Assembly: GCA_964560025.1 (NCBI GenBank)
Contig: CAZLKC010000007.1
Location: 7,365-71,364 of the forward strand
DNA: 64,000 nt
From: an uncultured Dehalococcoidia bacterium
Lineage (GTDB): Bacteria > Chloroflexota > Dehalococcoidia > Lucifugimonadales > Australimonadaceae
Direction of reading: 5' to 3'
Below are positions 1-43,405 of the stretch, piece after piece (within the stretch, counting starts at the first letter, position 1; each line of letters begins with the position of its first letter). Below the pieces are notes generated by a model. It was not told the DNA's origin. It saw nothing but the letters and a program-made list of their open reading frames with translations, and did not search any database. Position numbers and translations under genes: made by a program.

Positions 1-1187
1 ACCTGGCCGAGCACGCGCAGGCGCGGCATCGCGGCGTCCGCCGGCGGGGGCGCGGGCTGAGGCGCGGCGGCAGGGCCTGCGGGCGCGAAAGGCAGCGGCG
101 GCGGGGTCGGCGAGGCGGCGACGGTGAAGGAGAAGGGGTTGGCCGCCGGGAGCGCGCCGTCGGGCGCGGCGGAGCGCTCGAAGGGGCGAGCGTCGACGAC
201 GGGAACGGCGGCGAGGAGGCTTTCGCGCACGCTGCGCTGGACGCTGGAGAAGGCGTCGCCTTCGCGGGCGAAGCGCACCTCGCGCTTGTTGGGGTGGACG
301 TTGGCGTCCACCTCGTGGGGCGGCGCCTCGACGTTGACGACGGCGATGGGGTAGCGCCCCTGCATCAGCAGCCCGGCGTAGGCCTCTTCGACCGCGACGG
401 AGAGGGCGCGGCTCTGCACCCACCGTCCGTTGACGAAGATGCGTATGGCGGCGCGGTTGGGGCGGCTGTGGGCAGGCGGCGAGATGAGGCCGGTGGCGCG
501 GAAGGGCGCGGCGGGCGAGGGCGCGAGGTCGAGCATCGCCTCGGCCAGTTCGGCGCCGTGAGCGGCGGTGAAGGCGTCGCGCAGCGCTCCGCCGGGCGTG
601 CGGAGGAGCGTCTTGCCGTCGGCGGAGAAGGTGAGCGCGACGGCGGGATAGGCGAGGGCGAGGTTCTCGACGGCTTGGCGGACGCGCCCCGTCTCGGCGC
701 CGGTGGAGCGCAGGAATTTGAGGCGCGCAGGCAGCGCCGAGAAGAGCGCCTCCACGCTCACCGTAACGCCTGGGGGCGCGCTTGCGGCGCCATTGGAGAG
801 CACCCTGCCCGCCTCCAACTCGATGGCGGCGCCCTCGCCGTCGGCCTGGCGGCTGACCAGGCGGACGCGGGCGGCGGCGGCGATGCTAGGCAGCGCCTCG
901 CCCCGGAAGCCGAGCGTGTGGAGCGCGTCCAGATCGTCCAGCGTGCGCAGTTTGGAGGTGGCGTGGCGCTGGAACGCCGTCTCGAGGTCGCCGGGGGCGA
1001 TGCCCGCGCCGTCGTCGGCGACGCGGATGCGCTTCAGCCCGCCCTGCTCGATCTCGACCGTAACCCGCGAGGCGCCCGCGTCGATGGAGTTTTCGACCAG
1101 CTCCTTGACGACAGAGGCGGGGCGTTCGATGACCTCGCCCGCGGCGATGGCGGAGGCGACGGCAGGTTCGAGGATGCGGATGCTCAC
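1..1187 (-). CDS. mutL: DNA mismatch repair protein MutL, N-terminal part (3' end runs off the window)
   Basis: Absent from the ORF track because there is no stop in the window. Reverse-strand translation from GTG at 1187 reads VSIRILEPAVASAIAAGEVIERPASVVKELVENSIDAG...GFRGEALPSIAAAARV...DANVHPNKREVRF, which are the GHKL-ATPase motifs of MutL. Confidence 0.9.
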   Translation of the reverse strand, partial: MSIRILEPAVASAIAAGEVIERPASVVKELVENSIDAGASRVTVEIEQGGLKRIRVADDGAGIAPGDLETAFQRHATSKLRTLDDLDALHTLGFRGEALPSIAAAARVRLVSRQADGEGAAIELEAGRVLSNGAASAPPGVTVSVEALFSALPARLKFLRSTGAETGRVRQAVENLALAYPAVALTFSADGKTLLRTPGGALRDAFTAAHGAELAEAMLDLAPSPAAPFRATGLISPPAHSRPNRAAIRIFVNGRWVQSRALSVAVEEAYAGLLMQGRYPIAVVNVEAPPHEVDANVHPNKREVRFAREGDAFSSVQRSVRESLLAAVPVVDARPFERSAAPDGALPAANPFSFTVAASPTPPPLPFAPAGPAAAPQPAPPPADAAMPRLRVLGQ

Positions 1188-1242: not shown

Positions 1243-1590
1243 TCACAGCGCCTCCGCCAGAACCTTCTCGACGGCGCCTGGGATGAGGCGTCCGTTGACC
1301 ACTGCGACGGGGCGTTTGAAGTAGCGCGGCTCCCGGGCGAGGAGGTCTAGCAGGTCGTCGTCGGAGAGCGCGTCGGCATCCAGGCCTGACGCCTTGAAGG
1401 TTTGCGACTTGAAGTTGAAGAGGGCGCGTGGCGACTCTCCCGCCAGCAGGTCGAGCGTCTCCTGCTTGGAGAGGGGCTGCTTGAAGAACTCGCGCTCGGT
1501 TACTCGCGCGTCCGCTTGCGAGAGAAACTCCCTCGCTCGTCGGCAGGCGGTTCACTTGGCGTAGTACAGGAACGTGACCTCGGCGGTCAT
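1243..1590 (-). CDS. ArsC/Spx-family (arsenate reductase/YffB-like) protein with in-frame UGA at the catalytic Cys position; candidate selenoprotein
   Basis: ATG at 1590 is preceded by GGGGAGG with 5-nt spacing. Translation: MTAEVTFLYYAK-[TGA 1552-1554]-TACRRAREFLSQADARVTEREFFKQPLSKQETLDLLAGESPRALFNFKSQTFKASGLDADALSDDDLLDLLAREPRYFKRPVAVVNGRLIPG...AL*. The layout matches the ArsC/YffB pattern (LYG..C.TC.KA..WL ... KRP). Frame and sequence were cross-checked against the overlapping track ORF 1184..1708. Confidence 0.7.
1518..1536 (-). promoter_or_regulatory. SECIS-like hairpin 15 nt downstream of the in-frame UGA
   Basis: The mRNA reads UGA-N15-GCGAGGG-AGUUU-CUCUCGC. This is a 7-bp stem including one G-U pair, with a 5-nt apical loop carrying G at position 2. 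An outer CCGC/GCGG pairing is possible. Confidence 0.45.
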
Positions 1591-1752
1591 AGGCGCCTCC
1601 CCGTGCAGTTCGGCCGATGCATCCGATTGTAGGGAGCGTCCCGCGCGGCTTGCAACGTCTACGCGGCGAGAGGAGCAGCCGTGGACGCCTGGCATAGACT
1701 ACGCTCATCTGTCCTACCTAAGGGCAGCAAGTCGTGAAGCGCGGGGTAGCGC

Positions 1753-2214
1753 TTGCGGAGAAAGGTTCTGCCAATGGCCCTTCCATTTCACGCCCAGACC
1801 GTCTACGTGTACCTGATTAGCAAAGTGGTGGATTCGAAGCAGGTGGTGACGTATGGGGAAGTAAGCGAAGCCACCGGGGTGCCGTTGGGGGAAGGCGGCG
1901 GCGCTGTGAAACACGCGTTGGCAAAGATTTTCCACGCCTGCGACGAGCAGCGCCTGCCGCCGCTCACCTCCATCGTGGTGCAAGAAGCCACCTGCTACGA
2001 CCCAACCCTCAGGCACGGCATGCCTGGCGGAGGCTATCTAGTAGCGGCGGCAGAAAGCCCTAACCAGGCCAGGCGGCGTGAGGACCCAGGCCTCGCGGCC
2101 TGGCAACGCAAACCTCGACCGGACGATGTGGACACATGGAAAATGCAGGGAATGATTGAGGCGCACCAGGACTCCGTGTGGGAATTTAACGGCGCCTGGC
2201 CAGACGTACTGTAA
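1753..2214 (+). CDS. Hypothetical protein, possible MGMT/ATL-like winged-helix domain without the acceptor Cys
   Basis: 153-aa ORF with normal amino-acid composition and visibly lower GC than its flanks. The stretch FHAQTVYVYL...VVTYGEVSEATG...LPPLTSIVV loosely resembles the MGMT DNA-binding domain, but no PCHR motif is present. The start may be the internal Met (MALPF). Confidence 0.5.
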   Translation: MRRKVLPMALPFHAQTVYVYLISKVVDSKQVVTYGEVSEATGVPLGEGGGAVKHALAKIFHACDEQRLPPLTSIVVQEATCYDPTLRHGMPGGGYLVAAAESPNQARRREDPGLAAWQRKPRPDDVDTWKMQGMIEAHQDSVWEFNGAWPDVL

Positions 2215-4821: not shown

Positions 4822-4968
4822 GGCGCCCTTCGAGTTCCCTCAGGGCGAGCGGAGAGGAGCGGGGCGCGTCTCGGCGGAACAGGTATTGGGGATACGGGGA
4901 GTTGCGCGTCGAGGTTCCTGCCTACATAGGAACAACGGATAAGGCGCAGGAATGACAGATAAGAGGGG
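4822..4968 (+). repeat. Composite intergenic repeat: module A, D-like segment, decayed module B hairpin, two tail units
   Basis: ggcgcccttcgagttccctcagggcgagcgg (4822-4852); gcgtcgaggttcctgcctacataggaacaacgg (about 4905-4937); tail ggataaggcgcaggaatgacagataagaggggg. Confidence 0.8.
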
Positions 4969-5111
4969 GCGGCGTTTACAGGCGGGGCGGGCTTTGCTAT
5001 TTTGGCGTGGAGCCGGGTGGTTCGCGCGGGCAAGACGGGCTTCGTCCGGCGGCGGAAATCAGGGCGGGCAAGGACGAGGCGGCCCGGCGCCGCCGGGGAG
5101 AGTTCGACGCC

Positions 5112-5588
5112 GTGCGCATCGTCATCGGGTCCGACCACGCGGGGCTGCCGCTGAAGAAAGAGGCGGGGGAGTGGCTGCGGGAGTGGGGGTTCGAGGTGGA
5201 CGACGTGGGCGCACACGCCTACGACCCGGACGACGACTACCCCGACTTCTCCTTCGCGGTCGCCGAGGCGGTGGCGGGCGGGCGCGCCGACCGGGGCGTC
5301 ATCTTCTGCGGAAGCGGCGTGGGCGCGAGCATCGCGGCGAACAAGATGCCGGGGGTGCGCGCGGCGACGTGCCACGATTCCTACTCCGCGCACCAGGGCG
5401 TCGAGCACGACGATATGAACGTGCTGTGCTTGGGCGCGCGGGTGATCGGTCTGGAGCCAGCGCGCGAGGCGCTGCAAGCGTTCGTGGGGGCGTGGTTCAG
5501 CGGAGAGGAGCGGCACGCGCGGCGCCTCGCCAAGGTCAAGGCGGCGGAGGCGGCCTATCTGCGCGCGGGAGCGGAGGGGGCGACGTGA
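5112..5588 (+). CDS. rpiB: Ribose-5-phosphate isomerase B
   Basis: VRIVIGSDHAG...VIFCGSGVGASIAANKMPGVRAA.CHD..SA...VEHDDMNVLCLG is the RpiB/LacAB signature. GTG at 5112 is preceded by GGGGAGAG. The track ORF starts further upstream at 5007. Confidence 0.9.
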   Translation: MRIVIGSDHAGLPLKKEAGEWLREWGFEVDDVGAHAYDPDDDYPDFSFAVAEAVAGGRADRGVIFCGSGVGASIAANKMPGVRAATCHDSYSAHQGVEHDDMNVLCLGARVIGLEPAREALQAFVGAWFSGEERHARRLAKVKAAEAAYLRAGAEGAT

Positions 5589-8359
5589 CGGACAACGCGA
5601 TCCTCCAAGCGCAGAGGCTGGGGCAATCGGTCTGGTACGACAACATCCGGCGCGATTTCTTCGCGTCGGGGCGGTTCGACGAGCTGCTGCGCAACGGGAT
5701 AACGGGCGTAACGTCGAACCCGACCATCTTCGAGAAGGCGCTGGCGTCGACGAACGAGTACGACGCGCAGTTGGCGGAGGTGTGGGCGCGGGGCGCGTCC
5801 GCCGCCGAGGCGTTCGAGGAGCTGGCCGTTCACGACATCCGCCTGGCCGCCGACGCGCTGCACGGCGTCTACGAGCGCACGGAGGGGCGGGACGGGTTCG
5901 CGTCCTACGAACTGCCGCCGGAGTTGTCGCACGACGAGGAGGGTTCGGTGCGGGAGGCGGTTCGCCTGTTCGGCAAGCTGGACAGGCCGAACGTGATGAT
6001 CAAGGTTCCGGCGACGGAGGCGGGCGTCCGCGCGGTGCGGCGCCTCATCGGGGCGGGCGTAAACGTGAACGTTACGCTCATCTTCTCGCTCGCGGCCTAT
6101 GACAGCGTGATGGAGGCCTACCTGGGCGGGCTGGAAGAACTGGCGGCGAACGGGGGCGAGGTTGGACACGTCGCGTCGGTGGCGTCGTTCTTCGTGAGCC
6201 GGGTGGACACGGCGGTGGACGCGCAGTTGCGGGAGGCGGCCTCGCGGGGCGACGCGGCGGCGGAGACGCTGACGGGCAAGGCGGCGGTGGCGAACGCGAG
6301 CGCGGCATACGCGCGGTTCCGGGCGGCGTTCGGCGGCGAGCGGTTCGCGGCGTTGGAGCGCAAGGGGGCGCGTCCGCAGCGTCCGCTGTGGGCGAGCACC
6401 TCCACCAAAGACCCCGCACTGTCCGACACGCTGTACTTCGACGAATTGGTCGGGCCGGGGACGGTCAACACGATGCCGGACGCAACGGTGGAGGCGGCGC
6501 TCGACCACGGGCGCGCGGAGGTTCGCCTCGACGACCGCGCCACGGGGGCAAAGGGCACGCTCACGGCGCTCGCGAGCGCCGGAGTGGACATGGAGGCGGT
6601 TACGGCCAAACTACTGGCGGACGGGGTGGAGGCGTTCGCCGCCTCCTATCGCGCGGTGATGGCGACCATCGAGCGCAAATGCGCGGGGCTGCCGCAGCCC
6701 ATCGCCGGTGGCGCGGACGCAGCGCCGATGGCGGGGGCGGAGATGCGGCTGGGCGAGCACGAGGCGGCGTTCGCTGAGGCGTTGGCGCGGCTGGACGCGG
6801 AGCGTGTAGTGGAGCGCGTTTGGGCCAAAGACCACACGCTGTGGAATCCCGACCCGGCGGAGATTGTCGATCGGTTGGGGTGGCTAAGGGTGGCCGACGC
6901 GATGCGCCCGTGCCTGGCCGAGTTGGAGGCGTTCGCGGCTGAGGTGAAGGCGGCGGGCTACGGCAAGGCGGTGCTGCTGGCGATGGGGGGAAGCGCGTTC
7001 GCGCCGGAGCTCTACCGCAGCGTGTTCGGCTGCGCCGAGGGGTGCCCCGACTTCGAGATGCTGGACTCCACTACGCCGGGGCGCGTGCGGGAGGTGACCG
7101 GCGACCTCGACCCGGCGCGGACGCTGTTCATCGTCTCGTCCAAATCGGGCGGGACGGTCGAAGTGGTTTCGTTCTACCGCCACTTCCGTGCGCTGGCGGA
7201 CGCGGCGCTGGGGCGCGAGCGGGCGGGAGCGAACTTCATCGCCATCACAGACGCGGGCACCGCGTTGGAGCGTATGGCGCGGGAGGAGGGGTTCCGCCGC
7301 GCGTTCTTGAACCCGGCGGACATCGGCGGGCGCTTCTCGGGACAGTCGCTGTTCGGGCTCGTCCCCGCCGCAGTCATCGGGATGGACGTGGGGCGGTTCA
7401 CGGCGTCGGTGGACTCGATGCGCCTCCACTGCGAGCAGCCCCGGGCGGCCGAAAACCCCGGCGCGCGGCTGGGCGCGGCGCTTGCGGCGCTTGCGGAATG
7501 CGGCGCGGACAAGGTGGAGTTGGTTACGTCGCCGTCGCTGGAGGCGCTGGGGCTGTGGACGGAGCAGTTGCTGGCGGAAAGCCTGGGCAAGGACGGCAAG
7601 GGCGTCGTGCCCATTGCGGGCGAGCCGCCCGTCGCGCCGCACGTCTACAACGCCGACCGCCTCTTCGCCTACATCCGCCTCGCGGGCGACGACAACGGCG
7701 CCGCGGACGAGCGCGTGGACGCGCTGGCGGCGGCGGGCAAGCCGGTCGTGCGCCTCGGCCTGGAGGACGCCTACGACCTGGGCGGCGAGTTGTACCGCTG
7801 GGAGTTCGCAACGGCGATAGCGGGCGCGCTGCTGGGCGTTCATCCCTTCGACCAGCCGAACGTGCAGGAGGCGAAGGACATCGCCTCGGCGGCGGTGGAG
7901 GCGTACGAGCAGACGGGCGCCCTGCCCGACCCGGGCGAGACGCCGAACGCGGAGGCGCTGCTGCGGTTGATCGAGCAGGGCGACTACGTTGCATTCCAGG
8001 TCTATCAGCCGCAGTCGGCGGAGTTGGACGCGGCGCTGGACAGGGCGCGGCGCGCCGTCGTGGAGCGGTTCGGCGCGGCGGCGGCGGCGGGCTACGGGCC
8101 GCGCTACCTGCATTCCACGGGGCAACTGCACAAGGCGGGGCCGAACACGGGCGTGTTCTTCCAGGTGGTCGGCGGCGATGACGCCGACTTGCCTATCCCG
8201 GGGCGCGGGTACTCGTTCGGCGTGCTGGCGCGGGCGCAGGCGGACGGCGACCTGCGGTCGCTGCTGCAGCGGGGACGGCGGGCGGCGCGCATCGACGCGA
8301 GCGGTGGAGCGGCGGCGGCGCTGGACGCGTTCGCGGAGCGCGTGCGGCGCTTCGCCTAG
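5585..8359 (+). CDS. tal-pgi: Bifunctional transaldolase / glucose-6-phosphate isomerase
   Basis: Real part of track ORF 4952..8359. From GTG 5585 (GTGA overlap with the rpiB stop) it reads VTDNAILQAQRLGQSVWYDNIRRD...GVTSNPTIFEKA...MIKVPAT (transaldolase). This is followed by a PGI-like SIS half (LLAMGGSAFAPE...FIVSSKSGGTVE). Confidence 0.88.
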   Translation: MTDNAILQAQRLGQSVWYDNIRRDFFASGRFDELLRNGITGVTSNPTIFEKALASTNEYDAQLAEVWARGASAAEAFEELAVHDIRLAADALHGVYERTEGRDGFASYELPPELSHDEEGSVREAVRLFGKLDRPNVMIKVPATEAGVRAVRRLIGAGVNVNVTLIFSLAAYDSVMEAYLGGLEELAANGGEVGHVASVASFFVSRVDTAVDAQLREAASRGDAAAETLTGKAAVANASAAYARFRAAFGGERFAALERKGARPQRPLWASTSTKDPALSDTLYFDELVGPGTVNTMPDATVEAALDHGRAEVRLDDRATGAKGTLTALASAGVDMEAVTAKLLADGVEAFAASYRAVMATIERKCAGLPQPIAGGADAAPMAGAEMRLGEHEAAFAEALARLDAERVVERVWAKDHTLWNPDPAEIVDRLGWLRVADAMRPCLAELEAFAAEVKAAGYGKAVLLAMGGSAFAPELYRSVFGCAEGCPDFEMLDSTTPGRVREVTGDLDPARTLFIVSSKSGGTVEVVSFYRHFRALADAALGRERAGANFIAITDAGTALERMAREEGFRRAFLNPADIGGRFSGQSLFGLVPAAVIGMDVGRFTASVDSMRLHCEQPRAAENPGARLGAALAALAECGADKVELVTSPSLEALGLWTEQLLAESLGKDGKGVVPIAGEPPVAPHVYNADRLFAYIRLAGDDNGAADERVDALAAAGKPVVRLGLEDAYDLGGELYRWEFATAIAGALLGVHPFDQPNVQEAKDIASAAVEAYEQTGALPDPGETPNAEALLRLIEQGDYVAFQVYQPQSAELDAALDRARRAVVERFGAAAAAGYGPRYLHSTGQLHKAGPNTGVFFQVVGGDDADLPIPGRGYSFGVLARAQADGDLRSLLQRGRRAARIDASGGAAAALDAFAERVRRFA

Positions 8360-23794: not shown

Positions 23795-23870
23795 TGGCAT
23801 CCCCGGACGGATTCGAACCGTCGGCCGTCTGCTTAGAAGGCAGCTGCTCTGTCCGCTGAGCTACGGGGAC
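23795..23870 (-). tRNA. tRNA-Arg (anticodon UCU), CCA encoded
   Basis: Reverse complement: GTCCCCGTAGCTCAGCGGACAGAGCAGCTGCCTTCTAAGCAGACGGCCGACGGTTCGAATCCGTCCGGGGATGCCA. It has a 7-bp acceptor stem, GCTC/GAGC D stem, CUUCUAA anticodon loop and GACGG-TTCGAAT-CCGTC T arm. Confidence 0.92.
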
Positions 23871-41608: not shown

Positions 41609-41758
41609 GGTCCGGGCACCGCCGCCCTACCCTGCTAGCGGCGGGAACGGAGGCGCGCCAAACGCCACTTGGCCGCCGGGCGTTCGTTGCGTACGCTTGC
41701 CGACGCTGAGGGCGGCGCCGTCTCGCCGCCCCGTGAGATGCCTGAGGAGCCGCGCGCT

Positions 41759-43405
41759 ATGACCGACTGGAAGAACCGGCTGTATTTCGGCGACAACCTG
41801 CCCATCCTGCGGGAGCGCGTGGCGAGCGAGAGCGTCGACCTCATCTACCTCGACCCGCCGTTCAACTCGAACGCGACGTACAACGTGCTGTTCCGCGAGA
41901 CGAGCGGGGAGGCGTCGGCGGCGCAGATCCGGGCGTTCGACGACACGTGGCATTGGGACATCGAGTCGGAGGCGGCGTACGAAGACGTGGTGCGCGACGG
42001 CCCGCCTGAGTTGGCGAATATGCTCCAGGCGATGCGGGGATTCCTGGGCCGCAACGACATGATGGCCTACCTGACGATGATGGCGCAGCGGATAATCGAG
42101 CTGCATCGGGTGTTGAAGCCGACGGGCAGCATCTACCTGCACTGCGACCTGACGGCCAATCACTATCTGAAGTTGCTGATGGACGCGACGTTCGGGGCAG
42201 CCAACTTCTTAAACCAGGTCACTTGGAAGCGCACGAGCGCGCACAGCGACGCGAAGGCTATGGGGCGCATCCAAGACACTATCCTGCTCTACGCCAAAGA
42301 CAGCGCCTTGTTCCTCTGGAACGACCAATATCAAGCCCACGACTCCGAGTACGTCAGGACTCACTACCGCTATAAGACGGACGATGGCCGCCTGTATCGC
42401 ACGGACAATCTGACCGCAGGAGGCTTGAGCGGCGGCGGGTACGAGTACGAATGGAACGGGGTAACGCGCGTGTGGCGCGCCCCGCGCGAGACTATGGAGC
42501 GTCTGCACAACGAGGGACGCATACGCTACACCCGCAACGGCGTGGCGGAGTACATCCGCTACCTCGACGAGATGCCGGGCATGCCCCTGCAAGATATCTG
42601 GACGGACATTCCGCCCGTCAATGCTCAGGCCAAGGAGCGCCTGGGCTACCCCACGCAGAAGCCGGAGGCGCTGCTGGAGCGCATCATCAAGGCGAGCAGC
42701 AACGAGGGCGACGTGGTGCTCGACCCGTTCTGCGGGTGCGGGACGGCCATCGCGGTGGCGGAGCGGCTGAGGCGGCGCTGGATCGGCATCGACATCACCC
42801 ACCTCGCCATCTCGCTGATGAAGGGGCGGCTGCGCGACGCGTTCGGCAGGAACTTGCGCCCCTACGACGTGGTGGGCGCGCCGGAAGACCTGGCGAGCGC
42901 GCGGGCGCTCGCTACGGAGAGCGAGCACGACGGGCGCTACCAGTTCGAGTATTGGGCGCTCGGCCTGGTGGAGGCGCGGCCTGCGAACCGAGGGCGCAAG
43001 GGCGCGGACGCGGGCGTGGACGGCTACATCAACTTCTTCGACGACAGGTCGGGGAAGGCCAAGCGGGTGCTGGTGCAGGTGAAGAGCGGCAAGGTGCAGC
43101 GTGGCGTGGTGGCGACGCTGCGGGGCGACATGGAGCGAGAGAAGGCGGAGATGGGGGTGCTGATCACGTTGGAGCCGCCTACGGAGCCGATGCTGCGGGA
43201 GACAGTGGCGGCGGGGTTCTACACGCCGGAGCACTTCCCCGACCGGCGTTTCCCGCGCGTGCAGATCGTAACCATCGCGGAGTTGCTGGAGGGGCGGCAG
43301 CCGGAGTTGCCGCGTTTGGGGTTGTCGTACGCGCCTACGTTCCGGCGCGCGCCGCGCAGCCAGCAGGTGGAGGAGCAGCCGGCGCTGTACGGGGCGCGCG
43401 GCTAG
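41759..43405 (+). CDS. Beta-class N6A/N4C DNA methyltransferase fused to a C-terminal Mrr-like (PD-(D/E)xK) restriction-endonuclease domain
   Basis: From ATG 41759: motif IV DLIYLDPPFNSN comes before motif I VLDPFCGCGTAIAVAE...WIGIDI. The C-terminus reads YQFEYWALGLV...GADAGVDGYINFF...KRVLVQVKSGKV....V..L.G.......GVLITL (Mrr_cat-like). The central part is AT-richer. Confidence 0.85.
   Translation: MTDWKNRLYFGDNLPILRERVASESVDLIYLDPPFNSNATYNVLFRETSGEASAAQIRAFDDTWHWDIESEAAYEDVVRDGPPELANMLQAMRGFLGRNDMMAYLTMMAQRIIELHRVLKPTGSIYLHCDLTANHYLKLLMDATFGAANFLNQVTWKRTSAHSDAKAMGRIQDTILLYAKDSALFLWNDQYQAHDSEYVRTHYRYKTDDGRLYRTDNLTAGGLSGGGYEYEWNGVTRVWRAPRETMERLHNEGRIRYTRNGVAEYIRYLDEMPGMPLQDIWTDIPPVNAQAKERLGYPTQKPEALLERIIKASSNEGDVVLDPFCGCGTAIAVAERLRRRWIGIDITHLAISLMKGRLRDAFGRNLRPYDVVGAPEDLASARALATESEHDGRYQFEYWALGLVEARPANRGRKGADAGVDGYINFFDDRSGKAKRVLVQVKSGKVQRGVVATLRGDMEREKAEMGVLITLEPPTEPMLRETVAAGFYTPEHFPDRRFPRVQIVTIAELLEGRQPELPRLGLSYAPTFRRAPRSQQVEEQPALYGARG

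What the first reader, a model, noticed from the sequence alone, without database searches (positions are those of the whole stretch)
1243..1590. ArsC/Spx-family gene with an in-frame UGA at the catalytic Cys and a SECIS-like hairpin: candidate selenoprotein missed by ORF calling
- **Start signal:** on the minus strand an ATG (1590) sits 5 nt after a strong SD (GGGGAGG). It opens a frame that stops after only 12 codons at TGA (1552-1554).
- **Frame past the UGA:** the same frame then stays open for 102 more codons to TGA at 1243.
- **Family match:** the joined product is MTAEVTFLYYAK-U-TACRRAREFL...REPRYFKRPVAVVNG. It matches the ArsC/Spx/YffB thioredoxin-fold layout, and the UGA falls where the family has its N-terminal redox Cys (C-x-x-C becomes U-x-x-C).
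- **Hairpin:** 15 nt after the UGA the mRNA can form GCGAGGG-AGUUU-CUCUCGC. The apical loop begins 22 nt from the UGA and has G at position 2, which fits the general bacterial SECIS geometry.
- **Why it was missed:** the downstream part has no ATG/GTG/TTG giving 60 aa or more, which explains its absence from the ORF track.
- **Prior knowledge:** as far as I recall, ArsC-like selenoproteins have been predicted from marine metagenomes. The family may therefore not be new, but this locus would be unannotated.
Basis: partly seen in the sequence, partly recalled or inferred. Interest (0 to 1): 0.7.

Follow-up and report, generated by a model that had tools for sequence, protein, structure and literature searches.

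The report
Uncalled Spx-like selenoprotein gene with SECIS
A small redox-protein gene upstream of mutL almost certainly uses its internal "stop" codon UGA to insert selenocysteine, guided by a conserved RNA hairpin; it is real and missed by gene callers, but it belongs to a kind of selenoprotein already described from marine metagenomes.

Summary
On the minus strand, a Shine-Dalgarno sequence and ATG 1590 open a 115-codon frame with one in-frame TGA (1552-1554). The product is an ArsC/Spx-family protein, and the UGA sits on the first Cys of the Spx CxxC redox motif. I recovered 101 related loci. Of 81 distinct sequences, 78 have TGA at this position and 3 have Cys, across Dehalococcoidia/SAR202, Latescibacterota, Syntrophaceae and Thermoflexus, at 27-97% identity. 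The hairpin 15 nt after the UGA is conserved and covaries: 90% of cells are paired against 31-63% in slid controls, 6 of 8 pairs show compensatory changes, and 0 of 500 shuffles match. Some covarying partners are synonymous third-codon positions. The first loop base is G in 74 of 77. The Cys forms lack the hairpin. This is a bacterial SECIS. Databases hold the family as truncated ORFs, as TGA-to-Trp mistranslations, or uncalled. An Spx-type UxxC "Arsenate reductase 2" (cd03032) selenoprotein family was reported from the GOS survey in 2008, so this is a new member of a known kind. Sec machinery was not found in the window, which is too short for that to mean anything. The protein's biochemical function is unknown.

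The parts
1626..1655 (-). Sigma-70-like promoter TTGCAA-18 nt-TACAAT
   Evidence: 1 site found against 0.0 expected in shuffles. The TACAAT is invariant in the five-locus alignment A1, including the Cys-form locus. A consensus match only; function is inferred.
1596..1602 (-). Shine-Dalgarno GGGGAGG, 5 nt before the ATG
   Evidence: Read from the sequence. GGAGG is kept upstream of the ATG in most family members.
1243..1590 (-). Full selenoprotein CDS: 115 codons (Met1 to Leu115, Sec13) plus the stop TGA at 1243-1245
   Evidence: Pfam ArsC PF03960 at 47.1 bits, cutoff 24. GC profile by codon position 0.67/0.43/0.84. Family members are 112-123 aa with the same layout.
1555..1590 (-). N-terminal 12 codons (beta-1 strand, MTAEVTFLYYAK) before the Sec codon
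   Evidence: GC3 = 1.0. Across 77 sequences entropy is highest at third positions; the Trp codon at -8 is kept in 66/77 and the Tyr codon at -14 in 65/77. So this stretch is translated in the same frame as the downstream part.
1552..1554 (-). In-frame UGA = predicted selenocysteine codon (U13)
   Evidence: TGA in 77/77 aligned Sec-form sequences. Cys sits at this position in 3 distinct DNA-level homologues and in many database proteins. It aligns to Spx Cys10.
1543..1545 (-). Resolving Cys codon (C16) of the U-x-x-C motif
   Evidence: TGC or TGT in 77/77. Invariant C16 in alignment A4. Aligns to Spx Cys13.
1518..1536 (-). SECIS stem-loop: 5' arm 1536-1529, loop 1528-1526 (GUU), 3' arm 1525-1518. 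The stem starts 15 nt after the UGA.
   Evidence: 90.3% of cells paired against 31-63% in slid controls; 6/8 pairs with changes on both sides; 76 compensated cells against 27.6 +/- 4.2 in shuffles (0/500). RNAalifold predicts the core on its own. The first loop base is G in 74/77 although it is a third-codon position. The hairpin is absent in Cys forms.

Best explanation
Window 1590-1243 (minus strand) is one gene for a 115-residue selenoprotein of the ArsC/Spx thioredoxin-fold family. It is transcribed from its own sigma-70-like promoter and lies 56 nt upstream of mutL. During translation the UGA at codon 13 is not read as stop. The mRNA stem-loop that starts 15 nt downstream (8 bp, with a loop beginning in G) acts as a bacterial SECIS element. 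It recruits SelB-GTP-Sec-tRNA(Sec) to the ribosome, and selenocysteine is inserted. The product carries a U13-x-x-C16 redox centre at the position of the Spx C10-x-x-C13 switch and the ArsC catalytic Cys12. It most likely cycles between a selenol/thiol form and a selenenylsulfide form, acting as a small oxidoreductase or redox sensor. Shown here: the gene structure, family membership, conservation of the UGA, the Cys-for-Sec homologues, and an RNA-level constraint on the hairpin. Inferred: SelB dependence, actual Sec insertion, and the redox chemistry. The physiological substrate is unknown.
For: Sequence and frame. Family: Pfam ArsC E = 3e-12; best NCBIfam model TIGR01617 Spx/MgsR; best solved structures are Spx, with CxxC aligned on UxxC. 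UGA conservation: 78 of 81 distinct related sequences from at least three phyla have TGA at the aligned codon, at 27-97% identity. UGA is 77/77 and the downstream Cys codon 77/77, with coding periodicity upstream. Cys homologues: P0003, L055, L069 and many CxxC proteins. SECIS: covariation, independent RNAalifold prediction, covarying synonymous third positions and a fixed loop G, and no hairpin in Cys forms. UGA is still a stop in these organisms: this gene and about a third of its relatives end in TGA. Sec decoding is documented in the class: Dehalococcoidia MAGs with 46-49 selenoprotein genes (PMC13326102).
Against: No selA, selB, selD or tRNA-Sec in the 64-kb window, and no second read-through candidate there. 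So Sec decoding in this particular genome is not shown. No Rfam family matched the hairpin. Single-sequence folding energies are not significant. The hairpin overlaps conserved codons (A-R-E-F-L-S-Q), so part of its conservation is protein-level. About 11 of 77 Sec forms have 6 or fewer of the 8 consensus pairs, with shifted or bulged variants. There is no experimental evidence for Sec insertion or for any activity.
Confidence: 0.88

Rival explanations
1. Pseudogene: an ArsC/Spx-like gene inactivated by a nonsense mutation at the catalytic Cys codon (TGC/TGT to TGA).
For: A single base change turns a Cys codon into TGA. Gene callers treat the locus as broken or empty.
Against: TGA sits at exactly this codon in 77/77 aligned Sec-form sequences from several phyla, down to 27% identity. 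Both flanks are under purifying selection, and start codon, Shine-Dalgarno sequence and length are all kept. Independent identical inactivations on this scale are not credible.
Confidence: 0.01
2. Two separate products: UGA terminates a 12-residue leader peptide, and a truncated protein is made from a downstream start. This is how public gene calls model it (86- or 68-aa products).
For: Public calls P0001, P0002 and P0004 start at downstream GTG/ATG codons.
Against: In the window the codon used as the start in P0001/P0002 is GTA, not a start codon, and no ORF of 40 aa or more exists downstream of the UGA. A truncated product would lack beta-1, the redox motif and most of alpha-1 of the thioredoxin fold. 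The 12 upstream codons are conserved as the protein's beta-1 strand across the family. The xxC and alpha-1 codons between the UGA and the putative downstream starts are conserved as protein too.
Confidence: 0.03
3. UGA is read through, but as a standard amino acid: Trp or Gly by code reassignment, or Cys/Trp by near-cognate suppression. The hairpin would only slow termination.
For: Many database entries show W at this position. Sec machinery was not seen in the window.
Against: The W entries are TGA codons translated with an alternative code by gene callers; this was verified for P0012. TGA ends this very gene and about a third of family members, so the codon is not reassigned. The position is the catalytic Cys of a CxxC motif, where Trp or Gly would abolish the redox centre. 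The fixed distance and the fixed loop G fit SelB recognition (the bSECIS rules are recalled from Zhang and Gladyshev). The class is rich in selenoproteins (PMC13326102).
Confidence: 0.04
4. The hairpin is a by-product of the conserved peptide A-R-E-F-L-S-Q and has no RNA function.
For: It lies wholly inside conserved codons. Its folding energy is not unusual for this GC-rich sequence.
Against: Pairing partners include synonymous third positions. Column 36 (third position of Ser/Leu) tracks column 20 (Ala/Val), and column 33 (CUC/CUU) tracks column 23 (Arg/Lys). Column 27 is G in 74/77 against 37% G at third positions elsewhere in the gene, over loci of 39-71% GC. Cys-form homologues with similar alpha-1 helices pair at only 5, 1 and 3 of the 8 positions.
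Confidence: 0.03

Closest known systems
GOS 'Arsenate reductase 2' selenoprotein family (CDD cd03032 ArsC_Spx, motif UxxC; Zhang and Gladyshev 2008, PMC2398784), and the 'ArsC-like' selenoproteins of Desulfotalea and Desulfuromonas (PMC1794560)
   Same: ArsC-superfamily thioredoxin fold. Spx-type subfamily: the best models and structures for this protein are Spx/MgsR, and cd03032 is ArsC_Spx. UxxC motif with many Cys homologues. Marine and deltaproteobacterial members; my set includes Syntrophaceae and Smithella.
   Different: I could not compare sequences directly with the GOS or Desulfotalea entries, so identity of the families is inferred from shared descriptors. Those papers do not, in the text I read, describe the Dehalococcoidia/SAR202 and Latescibacterota clades or the mutL linkage.
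NCBIfam NF041106 'ArsC family (seleno)protein' (listed as 'Arsenate reductase-like protein', UxxC, in PMC13188914)
   Same: ArsC-family selenoprotein with a UxxC motif at the N-terminal redox site.
   Different: The window protein scores 21.1 bits and ten diverse relatives at most 42.8 bits, against a cutoff of 85. This is a different clade, which that model would not name.
Spx (Bacillus/Streptococcus redox-sensing RNA-polymerase-binding regulator; PDB 3l78, 1z3e, 6ghb)
   Same: Closest solved structures (E = 1.7e-12). The CxxC switch position equals UxxC. The R-S and R-P motifs are shared.
   Different: 115 aa instead of about 131, so it lacks the Spx C-terminal tail. Sec replaces Cys10. It is found in Chloroflexota, Latescibacterota and Desulfobacterota rather than Firmicutes. 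The TIGR01617 cutoff is not reached by the window protein (57.8 against 75). RNAP binding is untested.
Sargasso Sea/GOS 'Arsenate reductase (ArsC) 1' selenoproteins (TIGR00014/pfam03960, motif UxxS)
   Same: Same superfamily, with Sec at the same N-terminal catalytic position (PMC1088965, PMC2398784).
   Different: Their motif is UxxS, here it is UxxC. TIGR00014 scores 34.6 against a cutoff of 106.
Escherichia coli fdhF-type bacterial SECIS (SelB-binding stem-loop just downstream of UGA)
   Same: A hairpin inside the coding sequence a fixed short distance after the UGA, with a conserved G (mostly GU) in the apical loop.
   Different: The loop G lies 23 nt after the UGA. From memory that is about 4 nt further than in fdhF. 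The consensus has no conserved bulged U. No Rfam model matched.

Membership tests
Bacterial SelB/SECIS-dependent selenoprotein gene | In-frame UGA conserved at the same codon in orthologues, with coding conservation on both sides | tested here: met
   TGA in 77/77 aligned Sec-form sequences at 27-97% identity. Codon periodicity and conserved Trp/Tyr codons upstream; an invariant Cys codon downstream.
Bacterial SelB/SECIS-dependent selenoprotein gene | Homologues with Cys aligned to the Sec position | tested here: met
   P0003/L004, L055 and L069 at DNA level. At least 19 CxxC proteins among the top profile hits. Spx C10 aligns there too.
Bacterial SelB/SECIS-dependent selenoprotein gene | Stem-loop immediately downstream of the UGA, with the apical loop about 16-37 nt from the UGA and a G among the first two loop bases (bSECISearch criteria, recalled from memory) | tested here: met
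   Stem at +16 to +23 and +27 to +34 nt after the UGA; loop G in 74/77; covariation 0/500 shuffles; 90% paired against 31-63% slid.
Bacterial SelB/SECIS-dependent selenoprotein gene | selA, selB, selC (tRNA-Sec) and selD present in the same genome | not testable with these tools
   None in the 64-kb window. The contigs found for the same strain are 6 kb or shorter. There is only class-level literature support (PMC13326102).
Bacterial SelB/SECIS-dependent selenoprotein gene | Selenium actually incorporated at the UGA position | not testable with these tools
   Needs 75Se labelling or mass spectrometry.
ArsC/Spx/YffB superfamily (Pfam PF03960) | Score above the Pfam gathering threshold | tested here: met
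   47.1 bits against 24; residues 10-105.
Spx/MgsR subfamily (NCBIfam TIGR01617; CDD cd03032) | Score at or above the curated cutoff of 75.05 | tested here: not met
   The window protein scores 57.8 bits. Among 10 diverse relatives 3 pass (80.4, 80.0, 79.9) and 7 do not. It is the best-scoring model for the window protein and for 8 of the 10 relatives; for the other two the best is NF002459 (transcriptional regulator Spx).
Spx/MgsR subfamily (NCBIfam TIGR01617; CDD cd03032) | N-terminal CxxC redox switch at residues about 10-13 | tested here: met
   U13xxC16 aligns on Spx C10xxC13.
Spx/MgsR subfamily (NCBIfam TIGR01617; CDD cd03032) | Binding to the RNA polymerase alpha C-terminal domain, and a C-terminal tail of about 15 residues used for regulated proteolysis | tested here: inconclusive
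   The protein ends at residue 115, where Spx runs to about 131, so the tail is absent. RNAP binding cannot be tested here.
NCBIfam NF041106 ArsC family (seleno)protein | Score at or above the curated cutoff of 85 | tested here: not met
   21.1 bits for the window protein. Relatives: 28.9-42.8 bits for 8 of 10; the other two (proteins 3 and 6) have no NF041106 match at E <= 0.001.
Glutaredoxin-dependent arsenate reductase ArsC (TIGR00014), including the UxxS selenoprotein form | Score at or above the cutoff of 106.05, and a C/U-x-x-S motif | tested here: not met
   34.6 bits. The motif is UxxC in 77/77.
GOS 'Arsenate reductase 2' selenoprotein family (cd03032, UxxC) | Spx-type ArsC domain with a UxxC motif and Cys homologues | tested here: met
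   The descriptors match. A direct sequence comparison with GOS members was not possible.

The most novel reading that the evidence does not exclude
This clade is a selenium-dependent Spx-like redox sensor rather than a plain reductase. In Dehalococcoidia/SAR202 it would be functionally coupled to the mismatch-repair gene mutL, which it precedes on the same strand. It would also be a clade in which Sec, not Cys, is the ancestral and overwhelmingly dominant state (78 Sec to 3 Cys at DNA level), and one that no current curated selenoprotein model names.
Probability: 0.1. Interest if true: 0.6.

Novelty: new member of a known kind. Interest (0 to 1): 0.35.

Why it matters
Three practical points follow.

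- **Annotation gap.** This is a genuine protein-coding gene that automated annotation loses. An identical public copy has no gene call. Close relatives are called as 68-86 aa fragments. Many metagenome entries carry a false Trp at the active site.
- **No curated model covers it.** The clade is large: 1,967 database proteins at E <= 1e-10 and 78 distinct UGA-containing genes at DNA level, across at least three phyla. NCBIfam's ArsC selenoprotein model NF041106 does not capture it, so a dedicated model would fix many annotations in SAR202/Dehalococcoidia, Latescibacterota and Syntrophaceae.
- **A clean SECIS example.** The SECIS alignment shows RNA structure imprinted on coding sequence. Synonymous sites covary with amino-acid-changing sites, which is useful for training bacterial SECIS predictors.

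Biologically it adds one more thiol/selenol oxidoreductase to an already selenoprotein-rich class. It does not overturn anything.

Tried and rejected
- **Exhaustive HMMER search (search of protein representatives).** I used the search for homologous proteins and DNA-level locus scans instead.
- **Rfam.** Neither the gathering-threshold run nor the permissive run found a SECIS family. The only hit near the site is a chance-level COG3860 RNA match (14.8 bits against a gathering score of 42.5, E = 0.37).
- **Single-sequence folding energies.** They are not significant against shuffles in this GC-rich sequence, so I dropped them as evidence in favour of covariation. The extended lower stem predicted for the window sequence is not conserved; RNAalifold keeps only the upper helix.
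- **Sec machinery in the window.**
  - ARAGORN found only tRNA-Arg.
  - Motif screens for SelA, SelB and SelD found nothing.
  - Pfam on 19 window ORFs found nothing: every ORF of 300 aa or more in 31-64 kb, the cut 287-aa ORF at the window's end, and three short ORFs next to the gene.
  - The first 30 kb was read by eye only, from the translations.
  - This says nothing either way for a 64-kb slice.
- **Walking beyond the window.** Contigs holding identical proteins are only 1-6 kb long.
- **Other UGA read-through genes in the window.** Only the target passes the scan; three other hits are ordinary stops next to in-frame ORFs.
- **mutL linkage as a family-wide functional clue.** Rejected: it is limited to Dehalococcoidia/SAR202.
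- **The 174-aa overlapping ORF (1184-1708) and the ATG at 1695.** Rejected on codon-position GC profile and because the promoter lies inside that stretch.
- **Not run.** No structure prediction, because the sequence match to solved Spx structures already fixes the fold and the motif position. No covariance-model search, because a model of a coding hairpin would mostly score coding homology.

Full report
**1. Observation**

On the minus strand the sequence reads GGGGAGG (1602-1596), a 5-nt spacer, then ATG (1590-1588). Twelve codons follow (MTAEVTFLYYAK), then TGA (1554-1552), then 102 open codons to TGA (1245-1243).

No ORF of 40 aa or more with a canonical start exists after the internal TGA. 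That explains why an ORF track misses the gene.

The frame's GC content by codon position is 0.67/0.43/0.84, typical of real genes in this 69% GC window. GC3 is 1.0 in the 12 codons before the UGA. The overlapping 174-aa ORF at 1184-1708 (0.75/0.69/0.52) and the in-frame extension to ATG 1695 (0.77/0.63/0.66) look non-coding.

A sigma-70-like promoter, TTGCAA-18-TACAAT, lies at 1655-1626, inside that extension. Its -10 box is invariant in related loci. ATG 1590 is therefore the start.

**2. Family**

With U replaced by C, the product hits several models and structures:

| Library | Best match | Score | Cutoff |
|---|---|---|---|
| Pfam | ArsC PF03960 | 47.1 bits, E = 3e-12 | 24 |
| NCBIfam | TIGR01617 Spx/MgsR | 57.8 bits | 75 |
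| NCBIfam | NF041106 ArsC family (seleno)protein | 21.1 bits | 85 |
| NCBIfam | TIGR00014 arsenate reductase | 34.6 bits | 106 |
| PDB | Spx 3l78 | E = 1.7e-12 | - |

. In the Spx alignments, U13-x-x-C16 lies exactly on the Spx C10-x-x-C13 redox switch.

**3. Close relatives**

The first protein search returned four hits. Three are N-terminally truncated calls of 86, 86 and 68 aa. The fourth is a full-length SAR202 protein (P0003, 55% identity) that reads WWPG-C-GTC-R where the window reads YYAK-U-TAC-R.

The DNA upstream of the truncated calls keeps the Shine-Dalgarno sequence, the ATG, the 12 codons and the TGA. Synonymous differences occur on both sides of the TGA.

**4. The wider family**

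DNA-level scans of GTDB species genomes and JGI metagenomes gave 94 more loci. I translated each in the frame of its match.

- Of 81 distinct sequences, 78 carry TGA at the aligned codon, in a W-x-[RK]-U-x-x-C-[RK] motif. Three carry Cys (the L004 group, L055, L069).
- The lineages are Dehalococcoidia/SAR202, other Chloroflexota including Thermoflexus, Latescibacterota, and Syntrophaceae/Smithella. Identity to the window protein runs from 27 to 97%.
- All have an ATG (rarely GTG or TTG) 9-14 codons before the TGA, usually with GGAGG upstream. Total length is 112-123 aa.
- Upstream of the TGA, entropy is highest at third codon positions. The Trp codon at -8 is kept in 66/77 and the Tyr codon at -14 in 65/77. 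TGA is 77/77, and the Cys codon three codons later is 77/77.
- This gene and about a third of its relatives end in TGA, so UGA remains a stop codon in these organisms.

Together these results exclude a pseudogene, a leader-peptide-plus-truncated-protein model, and a reassigned genetic code.

**5. The SECIS**

The 63 nt from the UGA onward align without gaps in 77 distinct Sec-form sequences (A3).

| Measure | Observed | Control |
|---|---|---|
| Cells forming a standard pair | 90.3% | 31-63% with the 3' arm slid by 1-3 columns |
| Pairs with changes on both sides | 6 of 8 | - |
| Compensated cells | 76 | 27.6 +/- 4.2 in shuffles (0/500 reach 76) |

- RNAalifold predicts the six core pairs on its own.
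- The covariation cannot come from protein selection. Column 36 is a third position of a Ser/Leu codon and follows column 20, which switches Ala and Val. Column 33 (CUC/CUU, synonymous) follows column 23 (Arg/Lys).
- Column 27 is the first loop base and a third-codon position. It is G in 74/77, while G makes up 37% of third positions elsewhere in these genes, across loci of 39-71% GC.
- 66 of 77 Sec forms have at least 7 of the 8 pairs. The three Cys forms have 5, 1 and 3 and do not fold into the hairpin.
- A few Sec forms (the L031-33 group, L049, L052, L056, L062) have bulged or shifted variants.
- Single-sequence folding energies are not significant, and Rfam has no matching model. The case rests on comparative data.

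The geometry is a stem starting 15 nt after the UGA and a loop G 23 nt after it. This fits the published bacterial SECIS rules as I recall them (loop 16-37 nt from the UGA, G in the first two loop positions).

**6. How databases treat the family**

A profile of 29 diverse members finds 1,967 proteins at E <= 1e-10.

- genuine CxxC proteins;
- truncated calls of 97-106 aa;
- entries reading WxxC.

P0012, one of the WxxC entries, has TGA in its DNA, followed by the same hairpin. The Trp is therefore an artefact of gene calling with an alternative code.

Source names are "Spx/MgsR family transcriptional regulator", "regulatory protein spx" or "arsenate reductase". None says selenoprotein.

A public assembly (L103) contains an identical 418-nt copy of the window's promoter and gene, and no gene is called over it.

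**7. Sec machinery**

I found none in the window.

- The only tRNA is tRNA-Arg(TCT).
- Motif screens for SelA, SelB and SelD found nothing.
- Pfam on 19 window ORFs, covering every ORF of 300 aa or more in 31-64 kb, found nothing.
- The first 30 kb I read by eye from the translations. It appears to hold MutL, a transaldolase-PGI fusion, 6PGD, G6PD, an amidase, DnaN and ABC transporters.
- No second read-through candidate exists in the window.

This says nothing either way for 64 kb of a genome. At class level, BSepDB lists two Dehalococcoidia MAGs with 49 and 46 selenoprotein genes among the ten richest bacteria (PMC13326102).

**8. Context**

The gene lies 56 nt upstream of mutL on the same strand. 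The same order holds in many Dehalococcoidia/SAR202 loci, sometimes with one gene in between. It does not hold in Latescibacterota or Syntrophaceae. This is lineage synteny and not a family-wide functional link.

**9. Comparison with what is known**

- ArsC-type selenoproteins are established predictions. "Arsenate reductase" with UxxS came from the Sargasso Sea (PMC1088965).
- "ArsC-like" selenoproteins were found in Desulfotalea and Desulfuromonas (PMC1794560).
- The present family is Spx-type, UxxC and partly marine, so it fits "Arsenate reductase 2". I could not compare sequences directly.
- A 2026 review lists only TIGR00014 (UxxS) and NF041106 (UxxC) for ArsC-type selenoproteins (PMC13188914).
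- Eight of ten diverse members score 28.9-42.8 bits on NF041106 (cutoff 85), and the other two have no match at E <= 0.001. Three of the ten pass TIGR01617.
- The clade therefore has no dedicated curated model.

**10. Verdict**

The locus is a real, unannotated selenoprotein gene with a SECIS element supported by covariation.

It is a new member, and a poorly catalogued clade, of a known kind of selenoprotein. The biochemical role (reductase or Spx-like sensor) and Sec decoding in this particular genome remain untested.

Noticed in passing
window 3-1187 (-), and L001, L002, L004, L011-L019, L021, L022, L026, L030, L034, L036, L038, L040 and others: mutL starts (GTG 1187) 56 nt downstream of the selenoprotein gene on the same strand. 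This gene order, sometimes with one gene in between, is kept across Dehalococcoidia/SAR202 down to about 35% identity of the ArsC-like protein. It is absent in Latescibacterota and Syntrophaceae.
   Followed up: partly
P0007, P0012, P0014, P0015 and at least 17 more proteins; L102 145-147: Public metagenome protein sets contain many family members with Trp at the Sec position (WxxC). For P0012 the DNA codon is TGA, so these are mistranslations, presumably from gene calling with genetic code 4.
   Followed up: partly
window 1753-2214 (+): A 153-aa ORF with lower GC3 (0.71, against about 0.9 for its neighbours) and no Pfam hit. It sits between the selenoprotein gene and the CopD-like gene. It is absent at this position in close relatives L002 and L008, where the CopD-like gene lies about 110 nt away. 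In the same-strain assemblies L103 and L104 a 146-aa gene is called at this position, between the selenoprotein gene and the CopD-like gene. Possibly a recent insertion.
   Followed up: no
L031-L033, L049, L052, L056, L062 (columns 19-37 of alignment A3): A minority of Sec-form genes do not fit the consensus 8-bp hairpin register. The L031-33 group forms it with a bulged A. Others appear to use shifted or different stems. This is SECIS variation within one protein family.
   Followed up: no
window 41669-43405 (+); L001 939-2592: A single 578-aa ORF combines an N6/N4 DNA methylase with an Mrr-type restriction endonuclease domain. In relative L001 the two domains are called as two overlapping genes of 375 and 191 aa. 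Either a fusion or a frameshift difference in a restriction-modification module.
   Followed up: no
window 4952-8359 (+): The 1135-aa ORF begins with about 200 residues of Arg/Gly-rich low-complexity sequence before what reads as a transaldolase-glucose-6-phosphate isomerase fusion (seen by eye, not tested). The true start is probably well downstream of ATG 4952.
   Followed up: no
window 1246-1259 (-): A weak terminator-like stem with a T-run overlaps the stop codon of the selenoprotein gene (1 found against 0.5 expected by chance). It is not significant, so co-transcription with mutL remains open.
   Followed up: no
window 23795-23870 (-): tRNA-Arg(TCT), the only tRNA in the window. There is no tRNA-Sec.
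   Followed up: yes
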